Shown piece by piece: positions 6,608-62,775 of a DNA stretch of 64,000 bases. The translations under genes were made by a program, and so were the position numbers. The stretch is taken from assembly GCF_000027125.1 (NCBI RefSeq), contig NC_017626.1. One strand, 5' to 3'. Within the stretch, counting starts at the first letter, position 1. Every line of letters starts with the position of its first letter. Source of the stretch: Escherichia coli 042. GTDB lineage: Bacteria; Pseudomonadota; Gammaproteobacteria; Enterobacterales; Enterobacteriaceae. The notes under the pieces are model-generated. The model saw nothing but the letters and a program-made list of their open reading frames with translations. It did no database searches and was not told where the DNA came from.

Positions 6608-9513
<2,906 letters not shown>

Positions 9514-11920: not shown

Positions 11921-12772
<852 letters not shown>

Positions 12773-40557: not shown

Positions 40558-42516
40558 ATGTCCTTAAAAGGTCTGCGCTTTACGCTGGAGATTGACGGCC
40601 AGGAGCCGGACACCTTTGCAGTGGTGCATTTCAGGTTAATCCAGAACCAGTCTTATCCGTTTGTGATGAGTGTGGATGTTGCCAGCGACTCTTTTATGCA
40701 GACGGCGGAGATGCTGCTGGAGAAGAAGGCGACGCTGACCATCTGGCAGGGCGTCATCCCGCTGCGTTATGTCACCGGCGTGGTGGCGGGTTTTGGCATG
40801 CAGGAGAACAATGGCTGGCAGATGCGTTATCACCTGCGTATTGAGCCGCCGTTATGGCGGTGCGGGCTGCGGCAGAACTTCCGTATCTTCCAGCAGCAGG
40901 ATATCCGGACGATATCGGCCACGTTACTGAACGAGAACGGCGTCACGGAGTGGACACCGCTGTTTTATGAGGACCATCCGGCGCGGGAGTTCTGTGTCCA
41001 GTACGGGGAAAGCGACCTGGCGTTTCTGGCGCGGTTGTGGGCGGAGGAGGGAATTTTCTTCTTTGAGCGGTTTGCGGCGGACAGTCCGGAGCAGAAGCTG
41101 ACGCTGTGCGACGATGTGGCGGGGCTGTCACAGGCGGGAGAGCTTCCGTTTAACCCGGACACATCGGCAGGAGCGGAGACAGAGTGTGTCAGTATGTTCC
41201 GTTATGAGGCGTATGTCCGCCCGTCGTCGGTGCAGAGCCAGGATTACACGTTTAAGGTGCCGGACTGGCCGGGGATGTATGAGCAGCAGGGTGAGAACCT
41301 GAACGGACAGCTGGAGCAGTATGAGATATTTGATTATCCGGGAAGGTTCAAGGATGAACAGCACGGCAAGGATTTCACGCTGTACCAGATGGAGAGCCTG
41401 CGCAGTGATGCGGAAAAGGCCACAGGGCAGAGTAATTCACCGAAGCTGTGGCCGGGAACGCGGTTTACGCTGACGGGGCATCCGCAGAAGATGCTGAACC
41501 GTGAATGGCAGGTGGTACAGAGTATTCTGTCAGGGGACCAGCCGCAGGCGCTGCACGGCAGCCAGGGGAGAGGAACCACGCTGGGAAATCAGTTAGAGGT
41601 GATACCGGCGGACCGGACGTGGCGTCCACGGCTGCAAAGCAAACCGAAGGTGGACGGGCCACAGAGCGCCATTGTCACCGGTCCTGCGGGAGAGGAAATC
41701 TTCTGCGACGAACACGGACGTGTGCGAGTGCAGTTTCACTGGGACAGGTATAACCCGGCAACGGAGGCGAGTTCATGCTGGGTGAGGGTGTCGCAGGCGT
41801 GGGCGGGGCCGGGATTTGGTAACCTGGCGATACCGCGCATCGGCCAGGAAGTGATTGTAGACTTCCTGAACGGCGACCCGGACCAGCCGATAATCATGGG
41901 GCGGACGTACCATGAGGACAACCGTTCGCCGGGGAGTCTGCCGGGGACGAAGACGCAGATGACGATACGGTCGAAGACCTATAAAGGAAGCGGCTTTAAT
42001 GAACTGCGGTTCGAGGACGCGACGGACAAGGAAGAAATTTACCTGCACGCACAGAAAAATATGCAAGTCGTTGTGCTGAACAGCAAGGATAAGCGGGTCA
42101 ACTATGACCGGACGGTCAGCATCGGGCATGATGAATCCCTGGTGGTGGCAAATGACCGGAAAGTGACGGTTGAAGGTAAACAGGACCATAAAACCACCAA
42201 AGACCATGTCAGCCTGACAGAGGGCAATCAGGGGCTGGAGGTGAAAGGCGATCTGGCACAGAAAATAAGCGGCGCGCTGGGTATCAGCGTACAGGGCGAT
42301 ATTGTTTTACAGAGCGACAGCAAAATCAGTCTGCGGGTGGGCGGTTCATTTGTGGTGATCCATTCCGGCGGCGTGGATATTAAGGGCGCGAAAATCAATC
42401 TTAACGGCGGAGGCAGTCCGGGAGACGTGATCCTGCCGATGCGCCCGGTGATCCTGAAAGCCGCAGCCGGAAGCGGGACAATGTTTGTGGCGCACTGCCC
42501 GAAGGAGGATAAGTGA
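40558..42516 (+). CDS. vgrG: T6SS spike protein VgrG (TssI)
   Basis: 652 aa; gp27-like N-terminus, gp5-like OB fold and repeat region; no obvious C-terminal effector extension. Confidence 0.92.
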   Translation: MSLKGLRFTLEIDGQEPDTFAVVHFRLIQNQSYPFVMSVDVASDSFMQTAEMLLEKKATLTIWQGVIPLRYVTGVVAGFGMQENNGWQMRYHLRIEPPLWRCGLRQNFRIFQQQDIRTISATLLNENGVTEWTPLFYEDHPAREFCVQYGESDLAFLARLWAEEGIFFFERFAADSPEQKLTLCDDVAGLSQAGELPFNPDTSAGAETECVSMFRYEAYVRPSSVQSQDYTFKVPDWPGMYEQQGENLNGQLEQYEIFDYPGRFKDEQHGKDFTLYQMESLRSDAEKATGQSNSPKLWPGTRFTLTGHPQKMLNREWQVVQSILSGDQPQALHGSQGRGTTLGNQLEVIPADRTWRPRLQSKPKVDGPQSAIVTGPAGEEIFCDEHGRVRVQFHWDRYNPATEASSCWVRVSQAWAGPGFGNLAIPRIGQEVIVDFLNGDPDQPIIMGRTYHEDNRSPGSLPGTKTQMTIRSKTYKGSGFNELRFEDATDKEEIYLHAQKNMQVVVLNSKDKRVNYDRTVSIGHDESLVVANDRKVTVEGKQDHKTTKDHVSLTEGNQGLEVKGDLAQKISGALGISVQGDIVLQSDSKISLRVGGSFVVIHSGGVDIKGAKINLNGGGSPGDVILPMRPVILKAAAGSGTMFVAHCPKEDK

Positions 42517-43355
42517 TGGAAACGGCACCCGTGCAGTACGCCATTGTGGATGGCGCTGTGGAGGAAGGATTGCTGGATTTTCTGAACGAGGTGAATCCCC
42601 CGCACTGTTGTCTGTATGCAGAACCCATACAACTGGATCTGGTCGCGCTAGCCCCCTATCTCGTGGAAGTCGTTCCGGAGGTTGAAGCATGGCTGAGTGT
42701 TAAGGCGTCGCCATGGGGAATATATCTGACTTCTGAGTCATCCATGCGTGAGCTACAGCAACACTTCAGACGTTATCTGTGGGTTAGGATCCCCGAACAG
42801 GAGAAACCTGTTCTCATGCGATTTTATGATCCCCGGAATATATGGGTATTAGTGGAAGTTCTGACCCCCCGCCAGCGTCTTTCTTTTATCAGTCCCGTCA
42901 GACAGCTAAGTACCCGTTATGGTGAAGAATGTCGTGAGGATAATTTTTCTTCCGTCCGTCCCGCAGAAACTATGAATATAAGGGCAGAACGGCCATCACA
43001 ACTGACGCTGAGTTACAGACAATATAGCCAACTGGAACGAAAGGCACGGGATAATTATCTTGATATATTATCTGCATTTATCGAAGAAAATGTAGATAAA
43101 AACGGATGGGATGATTCATCAAAAGCTGAATCATCCCGAATTCTGGCAGAAGATTATTTCTCTTTTTGCCAGTCATTAAATATAGCAGATGATCGTTCCG
43201 TCAGAACAATGACGCTTATATTACTGAAAAAAAATATAATCGATCTCAGATATATTCCGGATGACTGGTATGAACAACTCAGCAATCAGTCATACCCGGG
43301 ACATATTCGGGTACATGAACTTGCACAACAGGAACTGGGATTTATCCCACAATAA
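42513..43355 (+). CDS. DUF4123-family T6SS effector adaptor/chaperone (Tap/Tec-like)
   Basis: 280 aa; N-terminal QYAIVDGAV motif characteristic of DUF4123; start overlaps the vgrG stop by 4 bp. Confidence 0.7.
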   Translation: MMETAPVQYAIVDGAVEEGLLDFLNEVNPPHCCLYAEPIQLDLVALAPYLVEVVPEVEAWLSVKASPWGIYLTSESSMRELQQHFRRYLWVRIPEQEKPVLMRFYDPRNIWVLVEVLTPRQRLSFISPVRQLSTRYGEECREDNFSSVRPAETMNIRAERPSQLTLSYRQYSQLERKARDNYLDILSAFIEENVDKNGWDDSSKAESSRILAEDYFSFCQSLNIADDRSVRTMTLILLKKNIIDLRYIPDDWYEQLSNQSYPGHIRVHELAQQELGFIPQ

Positions 43356-43376
43356 AAAGACAAACGGATAGATTAT

Positions 43377-44948
43377 ATGACATCTCCATCTTCGACAGCC
43401 GGAAAGCCCTGTGTGGAATGCGGCATTCCTGATCCATGTATTTTTGATGTTATTAGTGATTTTCCAGAGGCCGGCGAGAAACATTTCTGGTCAAAAGAAG
43501 GAGTGGCGCGTTTTAAGCTACTGGATGATGGTTCCGGATGTGATGGTATAATTACCATTACCTACCAGTGCGATAAAAGTGGAACACATGAGGCATGGTT
43601 AGAGGAAGAATCAGAAAATAATCATAAGATACTGCAACCTTTCGGAATACCTAATAAGGTCACTTTGGATGATAACTTGTCTGAAGGTGAAATAATTGCT
43701 ATGGGTACATTTCGAGTACCATGGGATTATTTGGGGGCAATATCCTCTCCACTTAAGAATCATTATGAACCTGCCCATTATTCAGTCAGAATTGACAGTT
43801 GTTACGAATGTGGCAATTATGTTGAAATTGATGTTTATCCTACAGTGGAAATTAGGTTTACTACAGGGTTCAGCTATGAGATTTCGTCATCAAAACAGAC
43901 GAGAACAGTAAAAGAGCGGCGTGACGAAAGAATAAAAGCCAGGGACGCAATGGAGAACACCAAGCCCAGGGATAAAAATAAACTCCGTAGCGGCTGGACA
44001 AATACCACTGCTGAGTTTGAGTGGATAAACAAGACTTCCCTGACTGTCGATTTTGGCGTAAAAATAGCTAATGTTGAACACACAAGTGAATATGAAAAAG
44101 AGATAAAAAAACTTCGACAAACAAAGCAACTGGAACAGATAGGAAGAATTGACTCTCTGGTCAAGAATGTCAATAAATATTTTGCGCCAGATCCTGACAA
44201 TAATAATGGTACGCGCAAATATGCATTGTTCAGTGCAAAAATAGAACCCGTTAAACTGGGTATATCGTATGCCTATCAATATACCGATATCCAGGATGGC
44301 CCCTGTCATTTTTATGGTTTGTTTGGTGCCCCATTTTTTGAAGCGTCGTTCAGATTCGATATTATTTCATTTATATGTGCATATTGTAAAGTCGAGTCAT
44401 TGGTCAACAGATGTCGTGAATATCTCCGTAAAAACGGAGCCAGTGTTGAATGCTATATCGAGATTTCAGCGGAGATTAATCTTGATCTTGGCGCAGTATA
44501 CGCTGAAAAGGATAAAAAATGGGAGTTTAATGTAAAGGAAAGTAACATCAAGCTCGGTTTAAAAGGTGTGGTGAGTGCGACGTTTGAGGCGAATGTTTTT
44601 GTTGTACAACTGACCGCCGAAGCGACTGCCTCTATAGAAGCGAAAGCTGGATTTGGATTTGATTCACATGATGACGGACTGGACCTAGCATTATTTCATG
44701 ACGGCATTAAAGGGAAGTTTGAATTTAAGATTGATGTGTCTCATGGTGAAGTTGATGAAAAAGGAAAGGGGAAGGAAAAGAGCGAAAAACCTGAGAAGAA
44801 AGATACCGTTGAGTGGCAGTTATGTGATCCTATGGAGGTAAAGGATTCACCATTACGGGTTAATTTATACGGTAAAGAACGCACTGTGGAGAAAAAAGTA
44901 ACACCGCCGAAGCCAGTGACAACGTGGACGATAGGTATGGATTATTAA
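43377..44948 (+). CDS. Hypothetical protein, candidate T6SS cargo effector of unknown activity
   Basis: 523 aa, no signal peptide, Cys-rich N-terminal third, Lys/Glu-rich C-terminal tail; directly downstream of vgrG and the DUF4123 adaptor. No recognisable catalytic motif seen by eye. Confidence 0.55.
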   Translation: MTSPSSTAGKPCVECGIPDPCIFDVISDFPEAGEKHFWSKEGVARFKLLDDGSGCDGIITITYQCDKSGTHEAWLEEESENNHKILQPFGIPNKVTLDDNLSEGEIIAMGTFRVPWDYLGAISSPLKNHYEPAHYSVRIDSCYECGNYVEIDVYPTVEIRFTTGFSYEISSSKQTRTVKERRDERIKARDAMENTKPRDKNKLRSGWTNTTAEFEWINKTSLTVDFGVKIANVEHTSEYEKEIKKLRQTKQLEQIGRIDSLVKNVNKYFAPDPDNNNGTRKYALFSAKIEPVKLGISYAYQYTDIQDGPCHFYGLFGAPFFEASFRFDIISFICAYCKVESLVNRCREYLRKNGASVECYIEISAEINLDLGAVYAEKDKKWEFNVKESNIKLGLKGVVSATFEANVFVVQLTAEATASIEAKAGFGFDSHDDGLDLALFHDGIKGKFEFKIDVSHGEVDEKGKGKEKSEKPEKKDTVEWQLCDPMEVKDSPLRVNLYGKERTVEKKVTPPKPVTTWTIGMDY

Positions 44949-45014
44949 GTGATATTACAGAAATTAAAAGTGAACAGTATAATGAGTATTTTCCCCTTTT
45001 GAGAGAGAATAATT

Positions 45015-46025
45015 ATGAAGGCAAAACATTTAATATCGGTTATTTTACTGTCAGGAGTTGTTATGGGAACTGGATTTTGCTCTAACGATAACCAGCAAAA
45101 AATTCGCAGTAAGTTTAATATTGAAGAGTCATATTGTGCCATTAAGACTAATGGCGTCCTCGGGTTCAGTAACCGAAGAAGTGCCTGGCGGGCAAATGGT
45201 GATTCAACCGGGGCCATATCCAGCACCAATGCCATGATGCTGATGGCGAATGGAGAAAATGAAATCAGTCTGGAGATTGGGGCATTAGGATGGTTTTCTG
45301 ACAAGCCTGCCAGTATGGAAGAACGGGGGCGTTTTTTTCCAAAAGCAGGATGCAGCCTGGATTTGGTTCGTTTTATTAAACAGGAGGAAACGCTGCTTTC
45401 TTCAATAAAAGTGACCATCAACCAGCAGGGCATACCTGAAGCCCGGCCAGACAGCGTGCATCCCGTTATCCGGAAAGAGATTTTGGCTGAGCAGGCGGAG
45501 CCAGGATTTATTGATCCAGATTATTTTGATGAAACCTATTTCCCGAAAGGGATGAAGGTGTATCAGTTCACTCAAAAAGTTACCGTGACAGGGCTTCCTG
45601 AATGGGCCTGGACGCGGGCAACCCCCTATACCGGAAGCGACGAGCAGTTACGGAAGTTAAAAGCCGCCTATACCGAAATGGCAAGCATCATCAGTAGCCG
45701 GGACAGGGCACGTCTGAAAGCTTATAACAAAGAGGCGCTGAAGGCATGGTCAGCCACAACCGGTGACTCTGAGGATGACATATTACTCTCACTCTTCTCA
45801 AAAGATAATGTGGAGGGAGGGAAAGCCAGAATGCAGCCCATCAGGTGGGACGATTATGCCGTCCGGGTTATGAATGGTGGACGTATGGTGCAGCTATATA
45901 ATAAATCGAAACCAATATATTCCCCACTGACTTACCGTTTTACAGATGAAAGTGGTGAAGAGCGTATGGGGTATTACGCTCCGGTATTTTCGCTGATTGA
46001 TGGTCAGTTTATCCCTGTTACTTGA
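45015..46025 (+). CDS. Hypothetical exported protein, candidate cognate immunity protein
   Basis: 336 aa with N-terminal signal peptide (MKAKHLISVILLSGVVMGTGFC); immediately downstream of the candidate effector. Confidence 0.5.
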   Translation: MKAKHLISVILLSGVVMGTGFCSNDNQQKIRSKFNIEESYCAIKTNGVLGFSNRRSAWRANGDSTGAISSTNAMMLMANGENEISLEIGALGWFSDKPASMEERGRFFPKAGCSLDLVRFIKQEETLLSSIKVTINQQGIPEARPDSVHPVIRKEILAEQAEPGFIDPDYFDETYFPKGMKVYQFTQKVTVTGLPEWAWTRATPYTGSDEQLRKLKAAYTEMASIISSRDRARLKAYNKEALKAWSATTGDSEDDILLSLFSKDNVEGGKARMQPIRWDDYAVRVMNGGRMVQLYNKSKPIYSPLTYRFTDESGEERMGYYAPVFSLIDGQFIPVT

Positions 46026-46337
46026 TTAACCTGTTGGGCTACAAATCAGGATGTCCGGTAAGGTGATTATTACTGAGTTAAGCACCTTACCGTTTTTTAA
46101 ATTTTTTGTCGCTGATATTCCAGACAGGAAAACAATATGCCTTTAGCTGCCAGATTAAACGACAAAGGTACCGGCACAGGGAAAGATCACGTAACGCTGC
46201 TTTTTTGTACTAAATAATTCGCATTTTATGTTTAAAATTTGAGATATTCCTCATTACCTGAGGCTGTTTTTTATTACTTATACATGATCAAATACTCCTT
46301 ACATAATTAAGGGGAACAAAATGGAACTTAAAAATTG

Positions 46338-47262
46338 ATGGAACATATTTCTGTTATTCCCGATTACAGACAAGCCTGGAAAGTGGAACATAAATTGTCG
46401 GATATTCTACTGTTGACTATTTGTGCCGTTATTTCGGGTGCAGAAGGTTGGGAAGATATAGAGGATTTTGGGGAAACACATCTCGATTTTTTAAAACAAT
46501 ACGGTGATTTTGAAAATGGTATTCCTGTTCACGATACCATCGCCAGAGTTGTATCCTGTATCAGTCCTGCAAAATTTCACGAGTGCTTTATTAACTGGAT
46601 GCGAGATTGCCATACTTCAGATGATAAAGACGTCATCGCAATTGATGGAAAAACGCTCCGGCACTCTTATGACAAGAGTCGCCGCAGGGGAGCGATTCAT
46701 GTCATTAGTGCGTTCTCAACAATGCACAGCCTGGTCATCGGACAGATCAAGACGGATGAGAAATCCAATGAGATTACAGCTATCCCAGAACTTCTTAACA
46801 TGCTGGATATTAAAGGAAAAATCATCACAACTGATGCGATGGGTTGCCAGAAAGATATTGCAGAGAAGATACAAAAACAGGGCGGTGATTATTTATTCGC
46901 TGTAAAAGGAAATCAGGGGCGGCTTAATAAAGCCTTTGAGGAAAAATTCCCACTGAAAGAATTAAATAATCCAGAGCATGACAGTTACGCAATGAGTGAA
47001 AAGAGTCACGGCAGAGAAGAAATCCGTCTTCATATTGTTTGCGATGTCCCTGATGAACTTATTGATTTCACGTTTGAATGGAAAGGACTGAAGAAATTAT
47101 GCGTGGCAGTCTCCTTTCGGTCCATAATAGCAGAACAAAAGAAAGAGCCAGAAATGACGGTCAGATATTATATCAGTTCTGCTGATTTAACCGCAGAGAA
47201 GTTCGCCACAGCAATCCGAAACCACTGGCACGTGGAGAATAAGCTGCACTGGCGTCTGGACG
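46338..47262 (+). CDS. ISAs1-family transposase (H-repeat-associated protein), exon 1 of intron-interrupted gene
   Basis: Matches the intact copy at 49523..50659 up to ...[14 protein letters not shown] 1 nt shorter A-run than in copy 2 removes the MELKKL leader, so the start shifts to the ATG at 46338. The ORF-track tail [10 protein letters not shown] is intron-encoded read-through. Confidence 0.75.
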
Positions 47263-49153
47263 GTGTGCCGCAGGAACACAAGATAGCTGCATAAGGATAC
47301 GCAGTTAGCTTTTGTATAAGCTCATAAAGAGATGGTGGAAGGCCCACCGGGATCGGCTGTCGGAAGCAGATTCCAAACCACTTCATGCTGCTGTGGTAAA
47401 GAGCCATGGTAGTGAGCGATGAAGTAAAGCGTGAGTGAAAACTCAGCAGGTAAGATACTCATGAGACGAGTGAACCCGAACCCATGTTGACGCGTCGTAA
47501 ACCAGAGACTGACATCAAAACCGAAGGGGCGTCCAGCCTTCGGGATAAGTCTGCGAGTGAATTCCGAATGCTGCGCAGACGGTGTCCGGCGTAAAGTGGG
47601 CGTGACGGAGTATCAGGCTCTTCCTGGGAACTGCGGGAACCTGTCGTTGTGATGATAAGGGAGAAATGCAAGTCACTGAATTGGCGAGCATGAAAGTACC
47701 GATGCACAGCACAGGGACGGAGCCGTTCGTAGTAGTGATGAAGCTTCTGTAATGGAGGTGGAGCGAAGGGGCGGCATCAGACAGTCTTTGGACAGTGTTC
47801 AACTGAACATGTTCAGGAGGAGACAATGACAAAGACAAAAGCGTTTAACATTGATAAGTCACTGGTGGTCAGCGCGTACAGGCGAGTGAAGACCAGTGCA
47901 GGCGCGGCGGGAATTGATAAGCAATCGCTGGCGGACTTTGATAAACGGTTAGTTGATAATCTGTACAAAATCTGGAACCGACTTTCTTCAGGAAGTTATT
48001 TCCCACCGGCAGTGAAAGCGGTGGCAATTCCGAAGAAATTGGGTGGAGAGAGAATTCTGGGTATCCCGACAGTCAGCGATCGTATCGCGCAGACGGTGGT
48101 AAAACTGGCCTTTGAGCCACAGGTTGAGCCACATTTTCTGGCAGACTCTTACGGCTACAGACCGAATAAATCGGCACTGGATGCTATAGGGGTAACGCGT
48201 AAGCGTTGCTGGTATTACGACTGGGTACTGGAATTTGACATCAAAGGGCTGTTCGATAACATCCCGCACGAACTGATAATGAAAGCCGTGGACAAACACA
48301 ATCCGGCCCGGTGGGTAAAATTGTATATACAGCGGTGGCTGACAGCGCCGATGGTGATGTCAGACGGAGAAGTCAGAGCACGAACAATGGGAACGCCGCA
48401 GGGAGGTGTCATAAGTCCGTTGCTGGCAAACCTGTTCATGCATTATGTGTTTGATAAATGGCTGGCAAAATATTATCCGAAAGTGCCGTGGTATCGATAT
48501 GCTGATGATGGCATTTTGCATTGTCACAGCGAAGCAGAAGCGACTGAAATGCGAGAAGTATTACGCAAAAGATTTAGCGAATGCGGACTGGAAATGCATC
48601 CGGAGAAAACGCGAGTTATCTACTGCAAAGATGGAAGCCGGAAGGGTGATTATGAACATACCATGTTCGACTTTCTGGGGTACACATTCAGGCGACGCGT
48701 AGTAAAGAACGTTAAGCGAAACAGTCTGTTTGTAAGTTTTACCCCCGCAGCGAGCAAATCAGCGCTAAAGGCAATGCGTCGGGAAATCAAAGCGACAGGG
48801 ATAAGGAAAAGAGTGGATTTAAGCATTGAGCAGATAGCGAAATGGATAAATCCAAAACTGAATGGCTGGATAAATTATTACGGGCGATATACCTGTTCGG
48901 AATTATACAGCGTGTTCAGATATATCAATAAAGCACTGGTGAGGTGGGGGCGTAAGAAATATAAAATGCTCAGCCGATACAAGACAAGAGCCTCAAAATT
49001 TCTGGAAGAAATGGCGAAGCGAAGTCCACAGTTGTTTGCCCACTGGCGTCTGAAGATGAGAGGCGGACTTGTTTGATGGGAGCGGTATGAGCCGAGAGGT
49101 TCACGTACCGTTCTGCGAGAGGCTGCGGGGGAGGTTCCTGCGGCCTACTCACC
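47263..49153 (+). mobile_element. Group II intron (about 1.9 kb) inserted in the transposase gene
   Basis: Insert begins GTGTG (GUGYG consensus), contains the RT/maturase ORF in the position of domain IV, has a domain V-like hairpin (GAGCGGTATGAGCCGAGAGGTTCACGTACCGTTC, about 49080..49114) and ends just before the exon 2 sequence seen in the intact copy. Boundaries are good to about 1 nt. Confidence 0.8.
47826..49076 (+). CDS. Group II intron-encoded reverse transcriptase/maturase
   Basis: 416 aa; RT motifs including YADD ([11 protein letters not shown]) and a C-terminal maturase (domain X) region. Confidence 0.88.
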
Positions 49154-49347
49154 TGGTAATGAATGAAGACGACTGCAAAATAAGAAGAGGAAATGCAGCA
49201 GAATTATTTTCAGGGATACGGCACATCGCTATTAATATTTTGACGAATGATAAGGTATTCAAGGCAGGGTTAAGACGTAAGATGCGAAAAGCAGCCATGG
49301 ACAGAAACTATCTGGCGTCAGTCCTTGCGGGGTGCGGGCTTTCGTAA
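49154..49347 (+). CDS. ISAs1-family transposase, exon 2 (C-terminal 64 codons)
   Basis: Encodes [63 protein letters not shown], nearly identical to the C-terminus of the intact copy; joins exon 1 in frame. Confidence 0.75.
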
Positions 49348-49378
49348 TCTTTCCCTGGATGTGAAAAGCAGCTGCGGA

Positions 49379-50669
49379 CAGGGAAAGATCATCAGAAGTA
49401 CACTTTTTGTACTAAACAATTCGCATTTTATGTTTAAAAATTGAGATATTCCTCATTACCTGAAGCTGTTTTTTATTGCTTATACATGATCAAATACTCC
49501 TTACATAATTAAGGAGAACAAAATGGAACTTAAAAAATTGATGGAGCATATTTCTATTATCCCCGATTACAGACAAGCCTGGAAAGTGGAACATAAATTA
49601 TCGGATATTCTACTGTTGACTATTTGTGCCGTTATTTCTGGTGCAGAAGGTTGGGAAGATATAGAGGATTTTGGGGAAACACATCTCGATTTTTTGAAGC
49701 AATATGGTGATTTTGATAATGGTATTCCTGTTCACGATACCATTGCCAGAGTTGTATCCTGTATCAGTCCTGCAAAATTTCACGAGTGCTTTATTAACTG
49801 GATGCGTGACTGCCATTCTTCAGATGATAAAGACGTCATTGCAATTGATGGAAAAACGCTCCGACACTCTTATGACAAGAGTCGCCGCAGGGGAGCGATT
49901 CATGTCATTAGTGCGTTCTCAACAATGCACAGCCTGGTCATCGGACAGATCAGGACGGATGAGAAATCTAATGAGATTACAGCTATCCCTGAACTTATTA
50001 ACATGCTGGATATTAAAGGAAAAATCATCACAACTGATGCGATGGGTTGCCAGAAAGATATTGCAGAGAAGATACAAAAACAGGGAGGTGATTATTTATT
50101 CGCTGTAAAAGGAAACCAGGGGCGGCTAAATAAAGCCTTCGAGGAAAAATTTCTGCTGAAAGAATTAAATAATCCAGAGCATGACAGTTACGCAATTAGT
50201 GAAAAGAGTCACGGCAGAGAAGAAATCCGTCTTCACATTGTTTGCGATGTCCCTGATGAACTTATTGATTTCACGTTTGAATGGAAAGGTCTGAAGAAAT
50301 TATGCGTGGCAGTCTCCTTTCGGTCAATAATAGCAGAACAAAAGAAAGAGCCCCAAATGACGGTCAGATATTATATCAGTTCTGCTGATTTAACCGCAGA
50401 GAAGTTCGCCACAGCAATCCGAAACCACTGGCACGTGGAGAATAAGCTGCACTGGCGTCTGGACGTGGTAATGAATGAAGACGACTGCAAAATAAGAAGA
50501 GGAAACGCAGCAGAATTATTTTCAGGGATACGGCACATTGCTATTAATATTTTGACGAATGATAAGGTATTCAAGGCAGGGTTAAGACGTAAGATGCGAA
50601 AAGCAGCCATGGACAGAAACTACCTGGCGTCAGTCCTTGCGGGGAGCGGGCTTTCGTAATCTTGCCCTG
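49379..50669 (+). mobile_element. ISAs1-family (H-repeat) insertion sequence, copy 2 (intact), in tandem 21 bp after copy 1
   Basis: Inverted repeats CAGGGAAAGATCATC and TTCGTAATCTTGCCCTG at the ends; 1291 bp. Confidence 0.8.
49523..50659 (+). CDS. ISAs1-family transposase (H-repeat-associated protein), intact
   Basis: 378 aa, [50 protein letters not shown]...; DDE-type H-repeat transposase. Confidence 0.88.
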
Positions 50670-50778
50670 GTACAGTAAACAAACGAAAGTTGTTATTTCA
50701 ATGGTCAGGGCAAGAGCATGAAGTGTTTACTACACACTATGCTCTTGTCCTGGAGTCAGGTCTTGTTTGGAGGGATAA

Positions 50779-51282
50779 ATGGTAGATATTGTCGAGGCCG
50801 ATAAAACGGATATTTATTTCATTCAGGAGAGTGTTTATGGCAAAATCGGGTTGCCAGCTTTTGGTAATACAATAGGACCATCCGCACAGCAAGTTGTTAA
50901 AAAGGTATTCGCTGTCGTTAAAGAACGAGATAAGACACATGCAAAACAGAGATTATTGTTGGAATATAATGGTAACAAACTCTGGATGAATGCTATTGAT
51001 GGCAGTGAAGCTATCCTACCAACAGAATTTTCTAAGCGATACGAACTTTCATTATTTAATACTACTAATTTTGGAGAAGATCCTTTTCCTGATGTTAATT
51101 TATATAATAATATGAAATCAAGTTTTTTTGTAAGGTTTGGTGGAACATCCCATCCCGAGGCTTGGGCTATTTATAATGCAAGTACGAAAGAGGTTAAATA
51201 TATAGAAACTGCAAGAGAAATTGATAAAATATTCAGTGATTTTAACTTGAGTGGTACATTGCCAATTCACATTGGTCGATGA
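50779..51282 (+). CDS. Hypothetical protein (no signal peptide), AT-rich
   Basis: 167 aa ORF just right of the IS pair; no recognisable motif; may correspond to the small ORFs that sit between yafT and yafF in E. coli K-12 (unverified). Confidence 0.4.
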   Translation: MVDIVEADKTDIYFIQESVYGKIGLPAFGNTIGPSAQQVVKKVFAVVKERDKTHAKQRLLLEYNGNKLWMNAIDGSEAILPTEFSKRYELSLFNTTNFGEDPFPDVNLYNNMKSSFFVRFGGTSHPEAWAIYNASTKEVKYIETAREIDKIFSDFNLSGTLPIHIGR

Positions 51283-51348
51283 TTTTTTAAATTGTGTGAT
51301 TAAATAATTGAACATTAATGATGATTTATAGCATTATTATTCTATAAC

Positions 51349-51861
51349 ATGAATAAACGGATTGAATGTGTTATGTTAAAAATAAGTTTATACGTAATAA
51401 TATTGTTATTTTCCTTTCAGATTAGTGCAGCCATTACTAGCAAGGAAAGTGAGGTTGTTTCACCATTATTAATGGATGTTAATTCTTCACTAACAATGGA
51501 AAATATTTCTGAATTATCCACATCATCGGAACCATCGCAACAGGGGGTATTTCCTGTAATATGTACTCGACTTCATCCTGGCTCCGTAATGAAACGCCAG
51601 TTATTAACCGGCTGGGGGCCTGTTTTTATAATTGGTGATGATCCTTTTTCTCTGCGCTGGATGAGTGAACATCTGGAGATCCTTAAATCGCTAAATGCCC
51701 TTGGTTTGGTTGTTAATGTTGAATCAGTAGAACGAATGGAGGTATTACAGCAGCGGGCTGATGGGTTATTGTTATTGCCAGTTATCTGCGATAATTTCGT
51801 GCAAACTCTGCAATTAAATGCTTATCCGGTATTAATCACAGAGATGGAAATATCACAATGA
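51349..51861 (+). CDS. Hypothetical exported/membrane protein
   Basis: 170 aa with N-terminal hydrophobic signal (MLKISLYVIILLFSFQISAA); AT-rich; identity not resolved. Confidence 0.4.
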   Translation: MNKRIECVMLKISLYVIILLFSFQISAAITSKESEVVSPLLMDVNSSLTMENISELSTSSEPSQQGVFPVICTRLHPGSVMKRQLLTGWGPVFIIGDDPFSLRWMSEHLEILKSLNALGLVVNVESVERMEVLQQRADGLLLLPVICDNFVQTLQLNAYPVLITEMEISQ

Positions 51862-51887
51862 TTAATAACATAATTACTGCAAATAAT

Positions 51888-52102
51888 ATCGTAATTTTGA
51901 AAATGGTAATCCTGTTCACGGCACCATAATTAGAGTTATGTCTTGTATCCGTTCAGTATAATTTCACGAATGCTTTATTAACTGGATGCGAGATTGCCAT
52001 TCATCAAATGATAAAGACGTCATCGCAATTGATGGAAAAGCGCTTCCACACTCCTATGATAAAAGTGGTCGCAGGGGAGCGGGCTTTCGTAGTCTTAGCC
52101 CG
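51888..52102 (+). pseudogene. yafF: Internally deleted ISAs1-family (H-repeat) remnant, yafF-like pseudogene
   Basis: Matches transposase codons roughly 55 to 118 ([35 protein letters not shown]) fused at a GGGGAGCG microhomology to the last about 20 bp of the IS right end (GGCTTTCGTAGTCTTAGCCCG). Confidence 0.75.
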
Positions 52103-52132
52103 ACTCTCCCCGGCCCTAAACACAACACCCAC

Positions 52133-52912
52133 TCACCACAACCTAAACTCATCCGCATCCCGCCATGCCGGAAACTTTTCTCTATATTCCCGCAATGCCG
52201 CCATCGACAGCTCCGCATCAATGCGCGTTGCCTGATGCGCGTCGGCGGTGGCGATAATCTCGCCCTGTGGATTAATCACCCGGCTGTCACCGCGATAATG
52301 GCAGCCGTTGCCATCGCTGCCGACGCGATTGCATCCCGCCACATACGCTTGATTCTCAATCGCGCGGGCCGTCAGCAATGCCTGCCAGTGCAGAGAGCGC
52401 GGAGCCGGCCAGTTGGCGACGTACAGGGCGAGGTCGTAATCGTTGAGATTGCGCGACCACACAGGAAAACGTAAGTCGTAGCACACCAGCGGCAAAATAC
52501 GCCAGCCGCGCCATTCCACAATCACTCGCGCATTGCCCGCTTTATAATGCAGATGCTCATCTGCCATGCGGAACAGATGACGCTTATCATAAAAATGTAC
52601 CGTGCCGCCTGGCTCAACCAGCAAAAAGCGGTTAACCGAACCAGACTCCGTTTGTAATGCAACACTGCCTGCAATCAGCGCATTGCACTGCTGCGCTTTG
52701 GCTGTCATCCAGTTCACTACGTCATCTTGTGCTAGCGACGAAGCTGCCGCTTCCATGGCAAAGCCGCTGGTAAACATCTCCGGTAGAACGATCACATCGC
52801 GTCCGGTAATATCTTCCAGTTGACGATCAAAATGACGCAGGTTGGCAGGACCATCCATCCACACCAGTGGTTGCTGCAAAAGCGTAATCTTCAAACCAGG
52901 CACGGTGTACAA
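52133..52912 (-). CDS. yafV: Omega-amidase / nitrilase-superfamily hydrolase YafV
   Basis: Carbon-nitrogen hydrolase fold (catalytic Cys in VCYDLRFP); the start may be the GTG three codons in, at 52903. Confidence 0.88.
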
Positions 52913-56256: not shown

Positions 56257-56835
56257 ATGTACCAGGATCTTATTCGTAACGAACTGAACGAAGCGGCGGA
56301 AACGCTGGCTAACTTTTTAAAAGATGACGCCAATATTCACGCCATTCAGCGCGCGGCGGTCCTGTTAGCAGACAGCTTTAAAGCTGGTGGCAAAGTGCTT
56401 TCCTGCGGCAACGGCGGCTCCCATTGCGACGCTATGCACTTTGCCGAAGAGTTGACCGGTCGCTACCGTGAAAACCGTCCGGGCTACCCGGCGATTGCCA
56501 TTTCCGACGTTAGTCATATTTCCTGCGTCGGTAACGATTTTGGTTTCAATGATATTTTCTCCCGTTACGTTGAAGCGGTAGGTCGCGAAGGCGATGTACT
56601 GCTGGGGATCTCCACCTCAGGTAACTCTGCAAACGTGATCAAAGCGATCGCGGCGGCGCGTGAGAAGGGGATGAAAGTGATCACCCTGACCGGTAAAGAC
56701 GGCGGTAAAATGGCTGGCACAGCGGATATCGAAATTCGCGTACCGCACTTTGGTTATGCCGACCGCATTCAGGAGATCCACATTAAAGTGATCCATATCC
56801 TGATCCAGTTAATTGAAAAAGAGATGGTTAAGTAA
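56257..56835 (+). CDS. gmhA: Phosphoheptose isomerase GmhA (LpcA)
   Basis: The ORF-track start at 56095 is an over-extension; the protein begins [24 protein letters not shown] (192 aa) with a SIS domain. Confidence 0.92.
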
Positions 56836-56841
56836 GTCTGG

Positions 56842-56976
<135 letters not shown>

Positions 56977-59745: not shown

Positions 59746-60243
59746 ATGTCTGAATATCGTCGTTATTACATCAAGGGGGGAACATGGTTTTTCACGGTAC
59801 ATTTACGGAATCGTCGAAGCCAACTTTTGACCACCCAGTACCAGACACTCCGTAACGCCATTATTAAAGTTAAGCAGGCCAGACCTTTTGAAATTAACGC
59901 CTGGGTAGTTTTGCCAGAGCATATGCACTGTATCTGGACATTACCCGAAAGTGATGATGATTTTTCCTCTCGCTGGCGGGAGATTAAAAAGCAGTTCACC
60001 CATGCTTGCGGATTGAAAAATATCTGGCAACCGCGTTTTTGGGAGCATGCCATTCGCAATACAAAAGATTATCGCCATCATGTTGATTATATTTATATAA
60101 ATCCAGTGAAACATGGCTGGGTAAAGCAGGTGAGTGATTGGCCATTCTCAACGTTCCATCGCGATGTAGCGCGAGGGTTATATCCCATTGATTGGGCGGG
60201 AGACATAACGGATTTTAGTGCCGGGGAGCGTATTATTTTATAA
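59746..60243 (+). CDS. rayT: REP-associated tyrosine transposase RayT (YafM; HUH Y1 transposase)
   Basis: 165 aa with HUH motif (HMHCIW) and C-terminal catalytic Tyr region; flanked on both sides by REP sequences. Confidence 0.9.
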   Translation: MSEYRRYYIKGGTWFFTVHLRNRRSQLLTTQYQTLRNAIIKVKQARPFEINAWVVLPEHMHCIWTLPESDDDFSSRWREIKKQFTHACGLKNIWQPRFWEHAIRNTKDYRHHVDYIYINPVKHGWVKQVSDWPFSTFHRDVARGLYPIDWAGDITDFSAGERIIL

Positions 60244-60665
60244 TTGTGCGCGGATGCCTGATGCGACGCAGGCGCGTCTTATCATGCCTACAAACTTGTG
60301 CCGGATCGGTGGGCCGGATAAGGCGTTCACACCGCATCCGGCAATTGTGCACCGGTGCCTGATGCGACGCTGGCGCGTCTTATCATGCCTACAAACCTGT
60401 GCCGGATCGGTGGGCCGGATAAGGCGTTCACACCGCATCCGGTAATTGTGCACCGGTGCCTGATGCGACGCTGGCGCGTCTTATCATGCCTACAAACCTG
60501 TGCCGGATCGGTGGGCTGGATAAGGCGTTCACACCGCATCCGGCAATTGTGCGCAGATGCCTGATGCGACGCTGACGCGTCTTATCATGCCTACAAACTT
60601 GTGCCGGATCGGTAGGCCGGATAAGGCGTTCACGCCGCATCCGGCAATTGTGCACCGATGCCGGA
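60244..60665. repeat. Tandem REP/BIME array of about four 101 bp units downstream of rayT
   Basis: TGCCTGATGCGACGC recurs at about 60255, 60357, 60458 and 60559 (101 to 102 bp period); each unit holds two REP palindromes in opposite orientation. Confidence 0.88.
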
Positions 60666-60681
60666 TTCGCCCCAAAGGCCA

Positions 60682-62775
60682 TCAACTCAACGCCCCCATA
60701 ATCTTCAACTCCAGCTCATCCGGCACTTCGTTATACGACAGCACATGCAGACCCGGCGCAAACAACCTTGCATAACGCGCCAGCAAAGGACGCAGCTGCG
60801 GCGGCACCAGCAGCACAGGGGCTTTCCCCGCTGCTTTCATCTGCTCCTTCACCTGCGGCATCGTACTCTGGAACTGGTTGAGCATATTCGGGTCAACCGG
60901 CACGCTGTCGAGCATCACTTTGCCGGCCTGTTGCGCCTGATTCACCACATTGGTCAGCAGATTTTCCAGCTCATTATTCAGCGTATACACCGTCAGCTCC
61001 TGTTTGCGAACGAACGGATGGGTAATGCTGCGCCGCAGCGCCAGGCGCACATCGGCCGCCAGCAGAATATGATCTTTGGTCAATGTGCTACTGGCGACCA
61101 GCACAGTGGCGATGGTGACGATATCGCGCAGGGAAACGCCTTCGGTCAGTAATGCACGGTACACTTTCAGCAACTGGCTGTAATTGAGCGCTGCGCTCAA
61201 ATCTTCCGCCAGTCGCGGTGCCATCGACGACAAACGATTATGCAACTGCGTAATATCGTCATAGTTAAATAAATCAGGAATATAGCTGCGCACAATCTTA
61301 TTCACATGGGTGGCAATCACGCTGGCGCTGTCGATCACCTGATACCCCATATTCAGCGCCTTCGCTTTCTGCGCGGGCTGGATCCAGGTCACCGGCATCC
61401 CGTACGCCGGGTCGTTCCCCAGCACGCCGTCAATCTCGCCGTAGGTTTCGCTGGAGGGCAGGGCCATCAGTTTATCCGCCGGAATATCCGCTTCATCAGC
61501 CTTAATGCCATTGATGAAAATGGCGTACTGGCTGGGCTTGAGGCGGAAGTTTTCCCGAATACGGATCTCCGGCAGCAGCACGCCGTTGCCGTCGGAAATC
61601 ACCTGCCGCACGCCGCGAATCCGCTGGGTGAGCGGGTTACCTTGGGCTTTATCGACTAGCGCCACCAGCTTGTAGCCGAGGCTTAAGCTGATGGGCTCGA
61701 TCAGCGGAATGGTTTCCCAACTGACCTGTTGCTCGCTGGTTTCGGTGATGGTTCGGGTCAGCGTTTCGAGGCTTTTCTCCTCCGCCTCCGCCGCCTGCGG
61801 GCGTTTGCTCATCCGCCAGCCGGTAAAGCCAAGCAGGGCGCTGAACAGCAAAAATGGCAGATGCGGCATCCCCGGCACCACCGCCAGCACAAACATGATC
61901 CCGGTGGCGGTGTAGAGCACCGACGGGCTTGCCAGCAGCTGGTGGCGCACGTCATGGGCGATATCGCCGTTGTCGCTGACGCGGGTGACGATAATTGCCG
62001 CTGCGGTGGAGAGCAGCAGGGACGGGATCTGCGCCACCAGCCCGTCGCCGATGGTCATCAGCACATACTGCTGGAAGGCGGCGTCGGCGCTCAGGTTGTA
62101 TTTGAAGATGCCGATACAGACGCCGCCGATCAGGTTGATCGCCAGAATCATCATCCCGGCGATGGCGTCCCCGCGCACAAACTTCGATGCCCCGTCCATC
62201 GCGCCGTAGAAATCGGCCTCGCTGGCAACATCTTTACGCCGGGTTTGCGCCTGCGCCTGGTTGATCAACCCAGCGTTAAGATCGGCGTCAATCGCCATCT
62301 GTTTACCGGGCATCGCGTCTAAGGTAAAGCGGGCAGAAACCTCGGAAATACGCTCGGCCCCTTTGGTGACGACGATAAAGTTGATGATCATCAGGATGAT
62401 AAACACCACAAAGCCGACGACAAAGTTGCCGCCAATCACCACCTGACCAAATGACTCAATTACCTTACCCGCCGCGCCCGCGCCGAGATGCCCGTGCAGC
62501 AACACCACGCGCGTAGAAGCAACGTTGAGCGTCAGGCGCATTAAGGTGGTGATCAGCAAAATGGTCGGGAACAGGCTGAATTCCAGCGGCCTTTTCGCTG
62601 ACACCGCCACCAGCAGTACCATCACCGCCAGCACAATGTTGAAGGTGAACAGAATATCCAGCAGCGCAGGCGGCAGCGGCAAAATAACCATCGCCAGAAT
62701 ACACAGGATCACCAGCGGCACGCCGAGATTGCCGCCGCGCAGTAGCGCGAGGAACGATTTAGTTGTTTTCGCCAT
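60682..62775 (-). CDS. lfhA: Flagellar type III export apparatus protein FlhA paralog (Flag-2 locus)
   Basis: 697 aa full-length FlhA-family protein (N-terminal transmembrane domain, FHIPEP region, cytoplasmic C-terminal domain); located next to rayT where the Flag-2 cluster begins. Confidence 0.85.
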   Translation of the reverse strand: MAKTTKSFLALLRGGNLGVPLVILCILAMVILPLPPALLDILFTFNIVLAVMVLLVAVSAKRPLEFSLFPTILLITTLMRLTLNVASTRVVLLHGHLGAGAAGKVIESFGQVVIGGNFVVGFVVFIILMIINFIVVTKGAERISEVSARFTLDAMPGKQMAIDADLNAGLINQAQAQTRRKDVASEADFYGAMDGASKFVRGDAIAGMMILAINLIGGVCIGIFKYNLSADAAFQQYVLMTIGDGLVAQIPSLLLSTAAAIIVTRVSDNGDIAHDVRHQLLASPSVLYTATGIMFVLAVVPGMPHLPFLLFSALLGFTGWRMSKRPQAAEAEEKSLETLTRTITETSEQQVSWETIPLIEPISLSLGYKLVALVDKAQGNPLTQRIRGVRQVISDGNGVLLPEIRIRENFRLKPSQYAIFINGIKADEADIPADKLMALPSSETYGEIDGVLGNDPAYGMPVTWIQPAQKAKALNMGYQVIDSASVIATHVNKIVRSYIPDLFNYDDITQLHNRLSSMAPRLAEDLSAALNYSQLLKVYRALLTEGVSLRDIVTIATVLVASSTLTKDHILLAADVRLALRRSITHPFVRKQELTVYTLNNELENLLTNVVNQAQQAGKVMLDSVPVDPNMLNQFQSTMPQVKEQMKAAGKAPVLLVPPQLRPLLARYARLFAPGLHVLSYNEVPDELELKIMGALS

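What the first reader, a model, noticed from the sequence alone, without database searches (positions are those of the whole stretch)
50705..50754. Small palindromic element beside the IS right end that resembles the IS terminal repeat
Thirty-five bp past the right inverted repeat of IS copy 2 lies a 50 bp hairpin whose arms (CAGGGCAAGAGCAT and ATGCTCTTGTCCTG) begin with the same CAGGGCAAGA as the IS terminus. This could be a solo inverted repeat or a MITE-like derivative, or an alternative end usable by the transposase.
Basis: seen in the sequence. Interest (0 to 1): 0.3.

Follow-up and report, generated by a model that had tools for sequence, protein, structure and literature searches.

The report
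Fossil mini insertion-sequence end pair
The small hairpin is a dead 47-bp remnant made of two inverted end sequences of an ISAs1-family insertion sequence, from a different lineage than the ISEc1 copy beside it; it is single-copy, immobile and ordinary genomic debris.

Summary
The palindrome is real. It spans 50706-50752 (47 bp), has 14-nt arms with one G:T pair, and lies 36 bp past the right end of ISEc1 copy 2. Its arms are insertion-sequence ends. The left arm's first 17-18 nt are identical to the exact termini of full-length ISAs1-family elements in Oceanisphaera, Photorhabdus, Xenorhabdus and Pseudoalteromonas. These elements are 1217-1273 bp, carry a DDE transposase and make 10-bp target duplications. 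The match to the neighbouring ISEc1 ends is only 14 of 20, all within the outer 10-11 nt plus scattered positions. Short two-ended derivatives of the same lineage (117-195 bp, one with a perfect 10-bp duplication) exist in other bacteria.

In E. coli the element is not a proliferating MITE:
- It occurs once per genome, at this locus in every copy I inspected, in 546 of 5426 complete genomes.
- It is absent from plasmids.
- It was identical in all eight copies aligned or compared, and has no target-site duplication.
- No copy has ISEc1 carrying it as an alternative end.

Two E. coli haplotypes place different ISEc1-type copies 36 or 86 bp upstream, so the spacing is not fixed.

Best reading: an inert fossil, either a two-ended mini-element or a fold-back right end of a non-ISEc1 ISAs1 lineage, sitting in the pile of H-repeat (H-rpt) IS relics downstream of a T6SS effector cassette. 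Interest is low.

The parts
50706..50752 (.). 47-bp palindrome: two inverted ISAs1-family termini back to back. Left arm 50706-50719, right arm 50739-50752, with an extended imperfect repeat 50706-50726 / 50732-50752.
   Evidence: The left-arm 17-mer is the exact terminus of full-length ISAs1-family elements.
50670..50705 (+). 36-bp spacer between the ISEc1 copy-2 right end and the palindrome. In the other E. coli haplotype it is preceded by 50 more bp before a different ISEc1-like end.
   Evidence: It has no significant similarity to IS right-end interiors.
49379..50669 (+). ISEc1 (H-rpt) copy 2, 1291 bp. Transposase at 49523-50659. Left end reads CAGGGAAAGATCATCAGAAG; right end read from outside inwards is CAGGGCAAGATTACGAAAGC.
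   Evidence: Pfam DDE_Tnp_1_assoc + DDE_Tnp_1.
46177..49357 (+). ISEc1 copy 1, interrupted by a group II intron (about 47263-49150; ltrA 47826-49076). It is separated from copy 2 by a 21-bp spacer (49358-49378).
50779..51282 (+). orf167, a hypothetical protein found only in E. coli. Its start codon lies 26 nt after the palindrome, with a GGAGG ribosome-binding site in between.
51373..51861 (+). orf162, a DUF2859 / PFL_4695-family ICE protein.
51881..52114 (+). Internally deleted ISAs1 (H-rpt) fragment with a degenerate right end. From my own knowledge, it probably corresponds to the K-12 yafF H-rpt fragment next to yafV.

Best explanation
The palindrome is a non-autonomous fossil of an ISAs1-family insertion sequence. 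It consists of two inverted copies of the family's terminal repeat, separated by about 19 nt, with no transposase between them.

Its ends belong to the 'CAGGGCAAGAGCATGAA' lineage seen as intact, recently mobile elements in Oceanisphaera, Photorhabdus/Xenorhabdus and Pseudoalteromonas. They do not belong to the ISEc1 (H-rpt) lineage next door.

Inferred origin: an element of that lineage once sat upstream of orf167. It lost its whole interior, or it was a miniature derivative from the start. Miniatures of 117-195 bp from the same lineage exist elsewhere.

Inferred present state: inert. No target duplication survives, no matching transposase was found in E. coli, it is single-copy, and it is fixed in one clade.

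Its only likely by-product is a stable stem-loop in DNA or in any transcript running from ISEc1 into the orf167 leader.

Shown: the sequence identity to IS termini, the copy number, the lack of a duplication, the lack of variation in the copies compared, and the haplotype structure. Inferred: the deletion history and the lack of function.
For: At least 23 matches sit exactly at the terminus of an ISAs1-type transposase gene (43-54% amino-acid identity to ISEc1). Many more lie at contig ends in Pseudoalteromonas and Oceanisphaera, as expected for a repeated IS.
2. Oceanisphaera contig L059 is a complete 1273-bp IS with the 17-mer inverted at both ends and a 374-aa DDE_Tnp_1 transposase. Its right end matches the left arm over 18 nt.
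3. The Photorhabdus copy L018 2161-3413 has a 10-bp duplication (GGATCAAATG). Pseudoalteromonas L024 has CTATTTAACC, and an E. coli ISAs1 inserted in bcsR has GGCGTTAAAG.
4. Two-ended miniatures of this lineage exist: L100 253-447 (195 bp, perfect 10-bp duplication GTTATATAGG), L062 1838-1990 (153 bp) and L094 3761-3877 (117 bp). The L062 element's end, CAGGGCAAGAGCATGA-GTGTCTACT, resembles the palindrome's CAGGGCAAGAGCATGAAGTGTTTACT.
5. Identity of the left arm is 17-18 of 20 to those ends, against 13-14 of 20 to the four ISEc1 ends.
6. There is one copy per genome in 546 of 5426 complete E. coli genomes; the 11 copies whose flanks I inspected or aligned lie in the same yafV-side context, apart from one probably chimeric metagenome contig (L125). 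There are none on true plasmids. A metagenome scan for the 25/26-mer found only two E. coli-like contigs.
7. The 47 bp are identical in both haplotypes, and the SNP seen in the two variant copies fetched lies outside it.
Against: - There is no target-site duplication around the element, so insertion by transposition cannot be shown.
- The right arm is a poorer IS end: G5A plus three inner mismatches, 13-14 of 20.
- Both arms are of the right-end type (GAGCAT). Most family members have a distinct left-end type (GATC). Only some, namely the Oceanisphaera IS and the L100 mini, have GAGCAT at both ends.
- At 47 bp it is far shorter than any miniature found here.
- No full-length parent with matching subterminal sequence was found.
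- Lack of function is inferred from absence of evidence.
Confidence: 0.8

Rival explanations
1. It is a solo fold-back right end rather than a two-ended mini-element. In this ISAs1 lineage the right end is itself a small palindrome, and the E. coli 47-mer is all that is left of one such right end after the rest of the IS was lost.
For: Photorhabdus and Xenorhabdus right ends read CAGGGCAAGAGCATGAATGTTCATTTCTTGCCC. In X. japonica (L096 2336-2370) the end is CAGGGCAAGA-15 nt-TCTTGCCCTG, a 35-bp palindrome that starts and ends with the family terminus. Weaker inner copies of 5-9 nt occur in Pseudoalteromonas, Shewanella, Oceanisphaera and L078 right ends. Both E. coli arms are of the right-end type. 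In haplotype L132 only the right arm is clearly conserved, at the same 26-nt distance from the paralogous gene.
Against: The E. coli stem is 14 (+5) nt, against 8-10 nt in the known fold-back ends. Neither flank shows any remnant of a transposase 3' end; spacer versus nine IS right-end interiors gave shuffle fractions of 0.26-0.82. The truncation would therefore have had to fall exactly at the edge of the inner arm. Orientation is ambiguous, because the better terminus is the left arm.
Confidence: 0.35
2. It is a functional alternative end, or a decoy or landing site, for the ISEc1 transposase. It either gets mobilised together with ISEc1 or attracts ISEc1 insertions nearby.
For: The outer 10 nt are identical to the ISEc1 right terminus. 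Two different ISEc1-type copies end 36 bp (about 175 genomes) and 86 bp (372 genomes) upstream of it, in the same orientation. ISAs1 ends cluster in tandem elsewhere too: K-12 RhsC H-rptC1-3 and Oceanisphaera L062, with a right end followed 28 bp later by a left end.
Against: Beyond position 10-11 the arms diverge from the ISEc1 ends (14 of 20). The ISEc1 + palindrome unit never occurs at a second site in 546 genomes. ISEc1 copy 2 has no 10-bp duplication, so its junctions are not simple insertions. The two haplotypes carry different T6SS effector cassettes, each ending in an H-rpt, which fits cassette exchange by homologous recombination better than targeted insertion.
Confidence: 0.07
3. It is a hairpin selected for a host function, unrelated to transposition. 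It could be an RNA stabiliser, a barrier in the orf167 leader, or a transcription terminator for read-out from ISEc1.
For: It folds into a strong stem-loop as RNA within the 141-nt context (the centroid structure keeps only this hairpin). It lies 26 nt upstream of the orf167 start codon. It was identical in all copies compared.
Against: No T-run follows the stem, and the terminator scan does not call it. No sigma-70-like promoter was found nearby. There is no Rfam match. The flanking DNA is as conserved as the hairpin, so the lack of variation says nothing, and there are no covarying substitutions to count. The exact 17-18-nt identity to IS termini is unexplained by this reading.
Confidence: 0.05
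4. It is a chance palindrome with coincidental resemblance to the IS end.
For: It is single-copy, has no target duplication, and its right arm is imperfect.
Against: The fold z-score is -6.25. The 10-mer count is 5 against 0.27 expected, with the other four all at ISEc1 ends. The 17-18-nt identity falls exactly at the termini of bona fide ISAs1 elements. It sits inside a cluster of three ISAs1 copies or fragments.
Confidence: 0.02

Closest known systems
MITE-like miniature derivatives of bacterial insertion sequences (terminal inverted repeats only, no transposase)
   Same: It has two inverted IS termini, no coding capacity and a tiny size. Miniatures of 117-195 bp from the same ISAs1 lineage exist, one with the family's 10-bp duplication.
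   Different: It is single-copy in every genome, has no target duplication, has no matching transposase in the host, and at 47 bp is much shorter than usual. It behaves as a fossil, not as a repeat family.
ISAs1-family elements with CAGGGCAAGAGCATGAA ends (Oceanisphaera pacifica 1273-bp IS; Photorhabdus thracensis / Xenorhabdus IS; Pseudoalteromonas 1217-bp IS)
   Same: The terminal 17-18 nt are identical. The Photorhabdus and Xenorhabdus right ends are themselves 33-35-bp fold-backs of the terminus.
   Different: Those are 1.2-1.3-kb elements with a 370-380-aa DDE transposase and 10-bp duplications. The E. coli object has neither.
ISEc1 / H-rpt (Hinc repeat) of E. coli Rhs and T6SS loci
   Same: It belongs to the same IS family, shares the outer 10 nt with the ISEc1 right end, and lies within a tandem, same-orientation pile of H-rpt copies and fragments like the three tandem H-rpts of RhsC in K-12. 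From my own knowledge, these were first described by Zhao et al. 1993, J Bacteriol 175:2799.
   Different: Positions 11-20 do not match ISEc1 ends (14 of 20). ISEc1 transposase is only about 44-54% identical to the transposases of the elements whose ends do match.

Membership tests
ISAs1-family terminal inverted repeat | The terminus starts with CAGGG and follows the family pattern CAGGGnnAGAnCnTGAA. | tested here: met
   The left arm CAGGGCAAGAGCATGAAG fits fully. The right arm CAGGACAAGAGCATAGTG fits with G5A and three inner mismatches.
ISAs1-family terminal inverted repeat | The same sequence forms the physical end of full-length elements that encode a DDE_Tnp_1 / DDE_Tnp_1_assoc transposase. 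| tested here: met
   L059, L018, L097, L024, L047 and L086. At least 23 of 121 matches are adjacent to a transposase homologue.
Autonomous ISAs1-family insertion sequence | A transposase gene lies between the inverted repeats. | tested here: not met
   Only 19 nt lie between the 14-nt arms.
MITE | Terminal inverted repeats matching those of an IS, small size, no coding capacity. | tested here: met
MITE | A flanking target-site duplication of the parent family's length (10 bp here). | tested here: not met
   The flanks are TTTCAATGGT and GAGTCAGGTC, matching at 2 of 10 positions. Family duplications of 10 bp are seen.
MITE | Multiple dispersed copies in a genome. | tested here: not met
   Exactly one place per genome in 546 E. 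coli genomes, none in the other 4880, none on true plasmids, and only two E. coli-like contigs in metagenomes.
MITE | A matching transposase source is present in the same host. | tested here: inconclusive
   E. coli carries ISEc1, ISKpn31 and an unnamed ISAs1 element. Their ends differ from the arms (14 of 20 or less). The best E. coli match to the Photorhabdus IS is 66% DNA identity. Cross-recognition was not testable.
ISEc1 (H-rpt) end / solo ISEc1 inverted repeat | Identity to the ISEc1 left or right end over the whole roughly 20-nt repeat. | tested here: not met
   13-14 of 20 for the left arm and 9-12 of 20 for the right arm. Identity is confined mainly to positions 1-10.
IS circle or tandem-dimer junction | The right end and left end abut facing outward, separated by a few bp. 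| tested here: not met
   The arms face inward (CAGGG...CCCTG), as in an element. The ISEc1 right end and the left arm are 36 or 86 bp apart.
Intrinsic terminator | A GC-rich hairpin followed by a T-run. | tested here: not met
   The scan does not call it, and the stem is followed by GAGTCAGG.
Known structured RNA (Rfam) | A match to a covariance model. | tested here: not met
   Only group II intron models match in 46000-52300.

The most novel reading that the evidence does not exclude
ISAs1-family right ends of this lineage are built as fold-backs that contain two inverted copies of the terminus. A single right end could therefore behave as a minimal (35-47 bp) transposase substrate, or as a site that attracts further ISAs1 copies. 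This would explain both the 47-mer and the recurrent same-orientation pile-ups of ISAs1 ends tens of bp apart. Those pile-ups are seen in the window (21 and 36 bp), in haplotype A (86 bp), in K-12 RhsC and in Oceanisphaera (28 bp).
Probability: 0.08. Interest if true: 0.45.

Novelty: new member of a known kind. Interest (0 to 1): 0.15.

Why it matters
It matters little for biology at large. It tidies the annotation of the IS graveyard between the T6SS-1 effector cassette and yafV in the 546 E. coli genomes that carry it. It also shows that a second ISAs1 lineage, otherwise seen in marine gammaproteobacteria and in Photorhabdus/Xenorhabdus, once visited this locus. Finally, it documents that ISAs1-family elements can leave miniature two-ended derivatives and have fold-back right ends. 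This family's transposition chemistry is, to my knowledge, essentially unstudied. If the fold-back end proved to be a transposase substrate, that would give a handle on how the family recognises its ends.

Tried and rejected
1. Multi-copy MITE in E. coli: rejected. There is one copy per genome and none on plasmids.
2. A family of the same element in metagenomes: the 25/26-mer scan gave only two E. coli-like contigs. One of them, L125, joins the locus to ansP/yncG. It is probably an assembly chimera through the IS repeat, so I did not use its context.
3. A transposase 3' remnant in the spacer left of the palindrome: by eye, frame 2 looked like ...KVVISM... against the IS C-termini ...KVIEM/KVLIAG. 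Local alignment of the 86-nt haplotype-A spacer against nine IS right-end interiors was no better than shuffles (fractions 0.26-0.82). Rejected.
4. The long variant in haplotype L132 as an unambiguous 226-bp two-ended ancestor: only the right arm aligns convincingly. The left 109 nt are shared with another cassette. Left open.
5. Covariation in the stem: impossible, because the 47 bp did not vary in any copy compared. The differences in strain SCU-482 fall at CCTGG (Dcm) sites and look like sequencing errors.
6. Position-weight-matrix scan of the window with family ends: the left arm is the top hit at 23.3 bits, against a shuffle maximum of 17.9. The matrix is partly circular, because many of its ends were found using the arm itself. 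Two coding-region sites also exceed the shuffles, so I give it little weight.
7. Terminator, promoter and Rfam readings: all negative.
8. Literature: no open-access paper was found linking ISAs1 or H-rpt to miniature derivatives.

Full report
**Observation**

The window is an E. coli chromosome segment, 100% identical to strain 118UI over the query. The order of features is:
- T6SS-1 genes with hcp, vgrG, DUF4123, an effector and an immunity gene.
- ISEc1 copy 1 (46177-49357), split by a group II intron.
- A 21-bp spacer.
- ISEc1 copy 2 (49379-50669).
- A 36-bp spacer.
- The palindrome (50706-50752).
- orf167 and orf162 (DUF2859).
- An internally deleted ISAs1 fragment (51881-52114).
- yafV.

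The palindrome is 47 bp. Its 14-nt arms pair perfectly except for one G:T, and five further inner pairs extend it. It folds far better than shuffles (z = -6.25). The 10-mer it shares with the ISEc1 right terminus is strongly over-represented: 5 occurrences against 0.27 expected, and the other four are all ISEc1 ends.

**What the arms are**

I searched the left-arm 17-mer CAGGGCAAGAGCATGAA in one genome per species.

Many matches lie at contig ends in Pseudoalteromonas and Oceanisphaera, which is the signature of a repeated IS. At least 23 lie within 400 bp of a homologue of the ISEc1 transposase, at 43-54% amino-acid identity. Specific cases:
- Oceanisphaera contig L059 is a whole 1273-bp element with the 17-mer inverted at both ends and a 374-aa DDE_Tnp_1 transposase. 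Its right end equals the left arm over 18 nt.
- In Photorhabdus thracensis the 17-mer is the right end of a 1253-bp element flanked by a 10-bp duplication.
- A Pseudoalteromonas copy and an E. coli ISAs1 inserted in bcsR also show 10-bp duplications.

Across these elements, left ends read ...AGATCRYGAAC and right ends read ...AGAGCRTGAA. The Oceanisphaera IS and a 195-bp miniature (L100) have the GAGCAT type at both ends, as the palindrome does.

The left arm matches these ends at 17-18 of 20 positions, but matches the four ISEc1 ends at only 13-14 of 20. The right arm is a decayed copy at 13-14 of 20. So the resemblance to 'the IS terminus' is a family resemblance. The element belongs to another ISAs1 lineage.

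**Is it a MITE?**

Miniature two-ended derivatives of this lineage do exist:
- L100 253-447: 195 bp, with a perfect 10-bp duplication.
- L062 1838-1990: 153 bp. Its GAGCAT-type end shares subterminal bases with the palindrome.
- L094 3761-3877: 117 bp.

The E. coli object, however, fails two defining tests for a MITE. It has no duplication. It is single-copy: one place per genome in 546 of 5426 complete genomes, none on genuine plasmids, and only two E. coli-like contigs in metagenomes. Every copy I inspected sits in the same yafV-side locus.

No E. coli IS has matching ends. The closest E. coli relatives of the Photorhabdus element are 63-66% identical in DNA and have different termini.

**Relation to the neighbouring ISEc1**

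Two haplotypes exist. In about 175 genomes, including the window, the right end of copy 2 lies 36 bp from the palindrome. In 372 genomes a different, degenerate ISEc1-like copy ends 86 bp away, behind a different effector cassette (DUF2169/PAAR-like).

The 47 bp are identical in both haplotypes. ISEc1 copy 2 has no 10-bp duplication. The adjacency therefore looks like cassette exchange and recombination among H-rpt copies. It does not look like use of the palindrome as an end. No second site carries ISEc1 plus the palindrome.

**Two-ended mini or fold-back solo end?**

Photorhabdus and Xenorhabdus right ends are themselves 33-35-bp palindromes of the terminus. In X. japonica the sequence is CAGGGCAAGA-15 nt-TCTTGCCCTG. 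Weaker inner copies occur in other members. The 47-mer could therefore be a lone right end.

Against that reading:
- Its stem is longer than in the known fold-back ends.
- The flanking spacer shows no remnant of a transposase 3' end.
- The best terminus is the left arm.

A rarer haplotype, L132 (12 genomes), has a 68%-identical paralogue of orf167. It is preceded, at the same 26-nt distance, by a degenerate right arm. About 210 bp upstream lies a degenerate left-arm-like sequence. That left part is shared with another cassette, so it does not settle the matter. I cannot separate the two models. Both make the element an ISAs1 end fossil.

**Function**

There is no terminator tail, no promoter and no Rfam match. 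There is no variation in the copies compared that could reveal selection on pairing. The hairpin lies in the leader of orf167, an E. coli-only gene of unknown function, and would form a stable RNA stem. Any effect on that gene is untested. I commit to 'inert relic' with about 0.8 confidence that it is an ISAs1-lineage end fossil.

**Verdict**

The finding is real, explained and ordinary. It is a new example of a known kind of object, namely a miniature or solo-end IS relic.

Noticed in passing
window 47263-49150 (ltrA 47826-49076; Rfam hits 47334-47451 and 49078-49153): A group II intron with an intact reverse transcriptase/maturase gene is inserted inside ISEc1 copy 1. The same arrangement is annotated in strains 118UI and SCU-482.
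   Followed up: partly
window 49358-49378 and 50670-50705; L127 6020-6105: ISAs1-type ends pile up in tandem and in the same orientation, tens of bp apart. The gaps are 21 and 36 bp here and 86 bp in haplotype A. K-12 RhsC has three tandem H-rpts (L004 8303-10926). Oceanisphaera L062 has a right end followed 28 bp later by a left end at 7458/7487, and two adjacent right ends near 11992. None of the E. coli junctions has a 10-bp duplication.
   Followed up: partly
L127 (strain FDAARGOS_536) versus window 40558-50669: Two haplotypes carry different T6SS effector cassettes (DUF4123-type versus DUF2169/PAAR-like type). Each ends in an ISEc1-type copy, followed by the same palindrome-orf167-orf162-yafV segment. 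This suggests that H-rpt copies act as portable homology for cassette swapping.
   Followed up: no
L018 2161-2193, L019 704-736, L096 2336-2370, L097 10397-10429: The right ends of Photorhabdus and Xenorhabdus ISAs1-family elements are intrinsic 33-35-bp fold-backs of the terminal 8-10 nt. The transposase stop codon lies in the loop.
   Followed up: partly
L132 4751-4976: A rarer E. coli haplotype (12 genomes) has a 68%-identical paralogue of orf167. It is preceded by about 226 bp bounded by degenerate ISAs1-like ends. The ISAs1 copy next to yafV is nearly full length there.
   Followed up: partly
window 56775-56976 and 60241-60745: A roughly 101-bp unit is repeated head to tail about five times, with a diverged copy 3.4 kb upstream (repeat family D1). 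I did not examine it.
   Followed up: no
L002 (strain SCU-482) 3971 and 4053: Differences from the window fall at CCTGG (Dcm) sites (CCCTGG read as CCCC-G). This is typical of methylation-related sequencing errors rather than real variation.
   Followed up: no
L125 (metagenome contig OGZI01007375.1) 2477-5353: The contig joins the palindrome locus, through an ISEc1-like copy, to two genes I identified by eye (from memory of the K-12 map) as ansP and yncG, which flank RhsE. It is probably an assembly chimera across the IS repeat.
   Followed up: partly
window 31824 (-) and 41287 (+): Two coding-region sites score above shuffles in the ISAs1-end matrix scan (19.7 and 18.7 bits). They are probably chance matches inside T6SS genes.
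   Followed up: no
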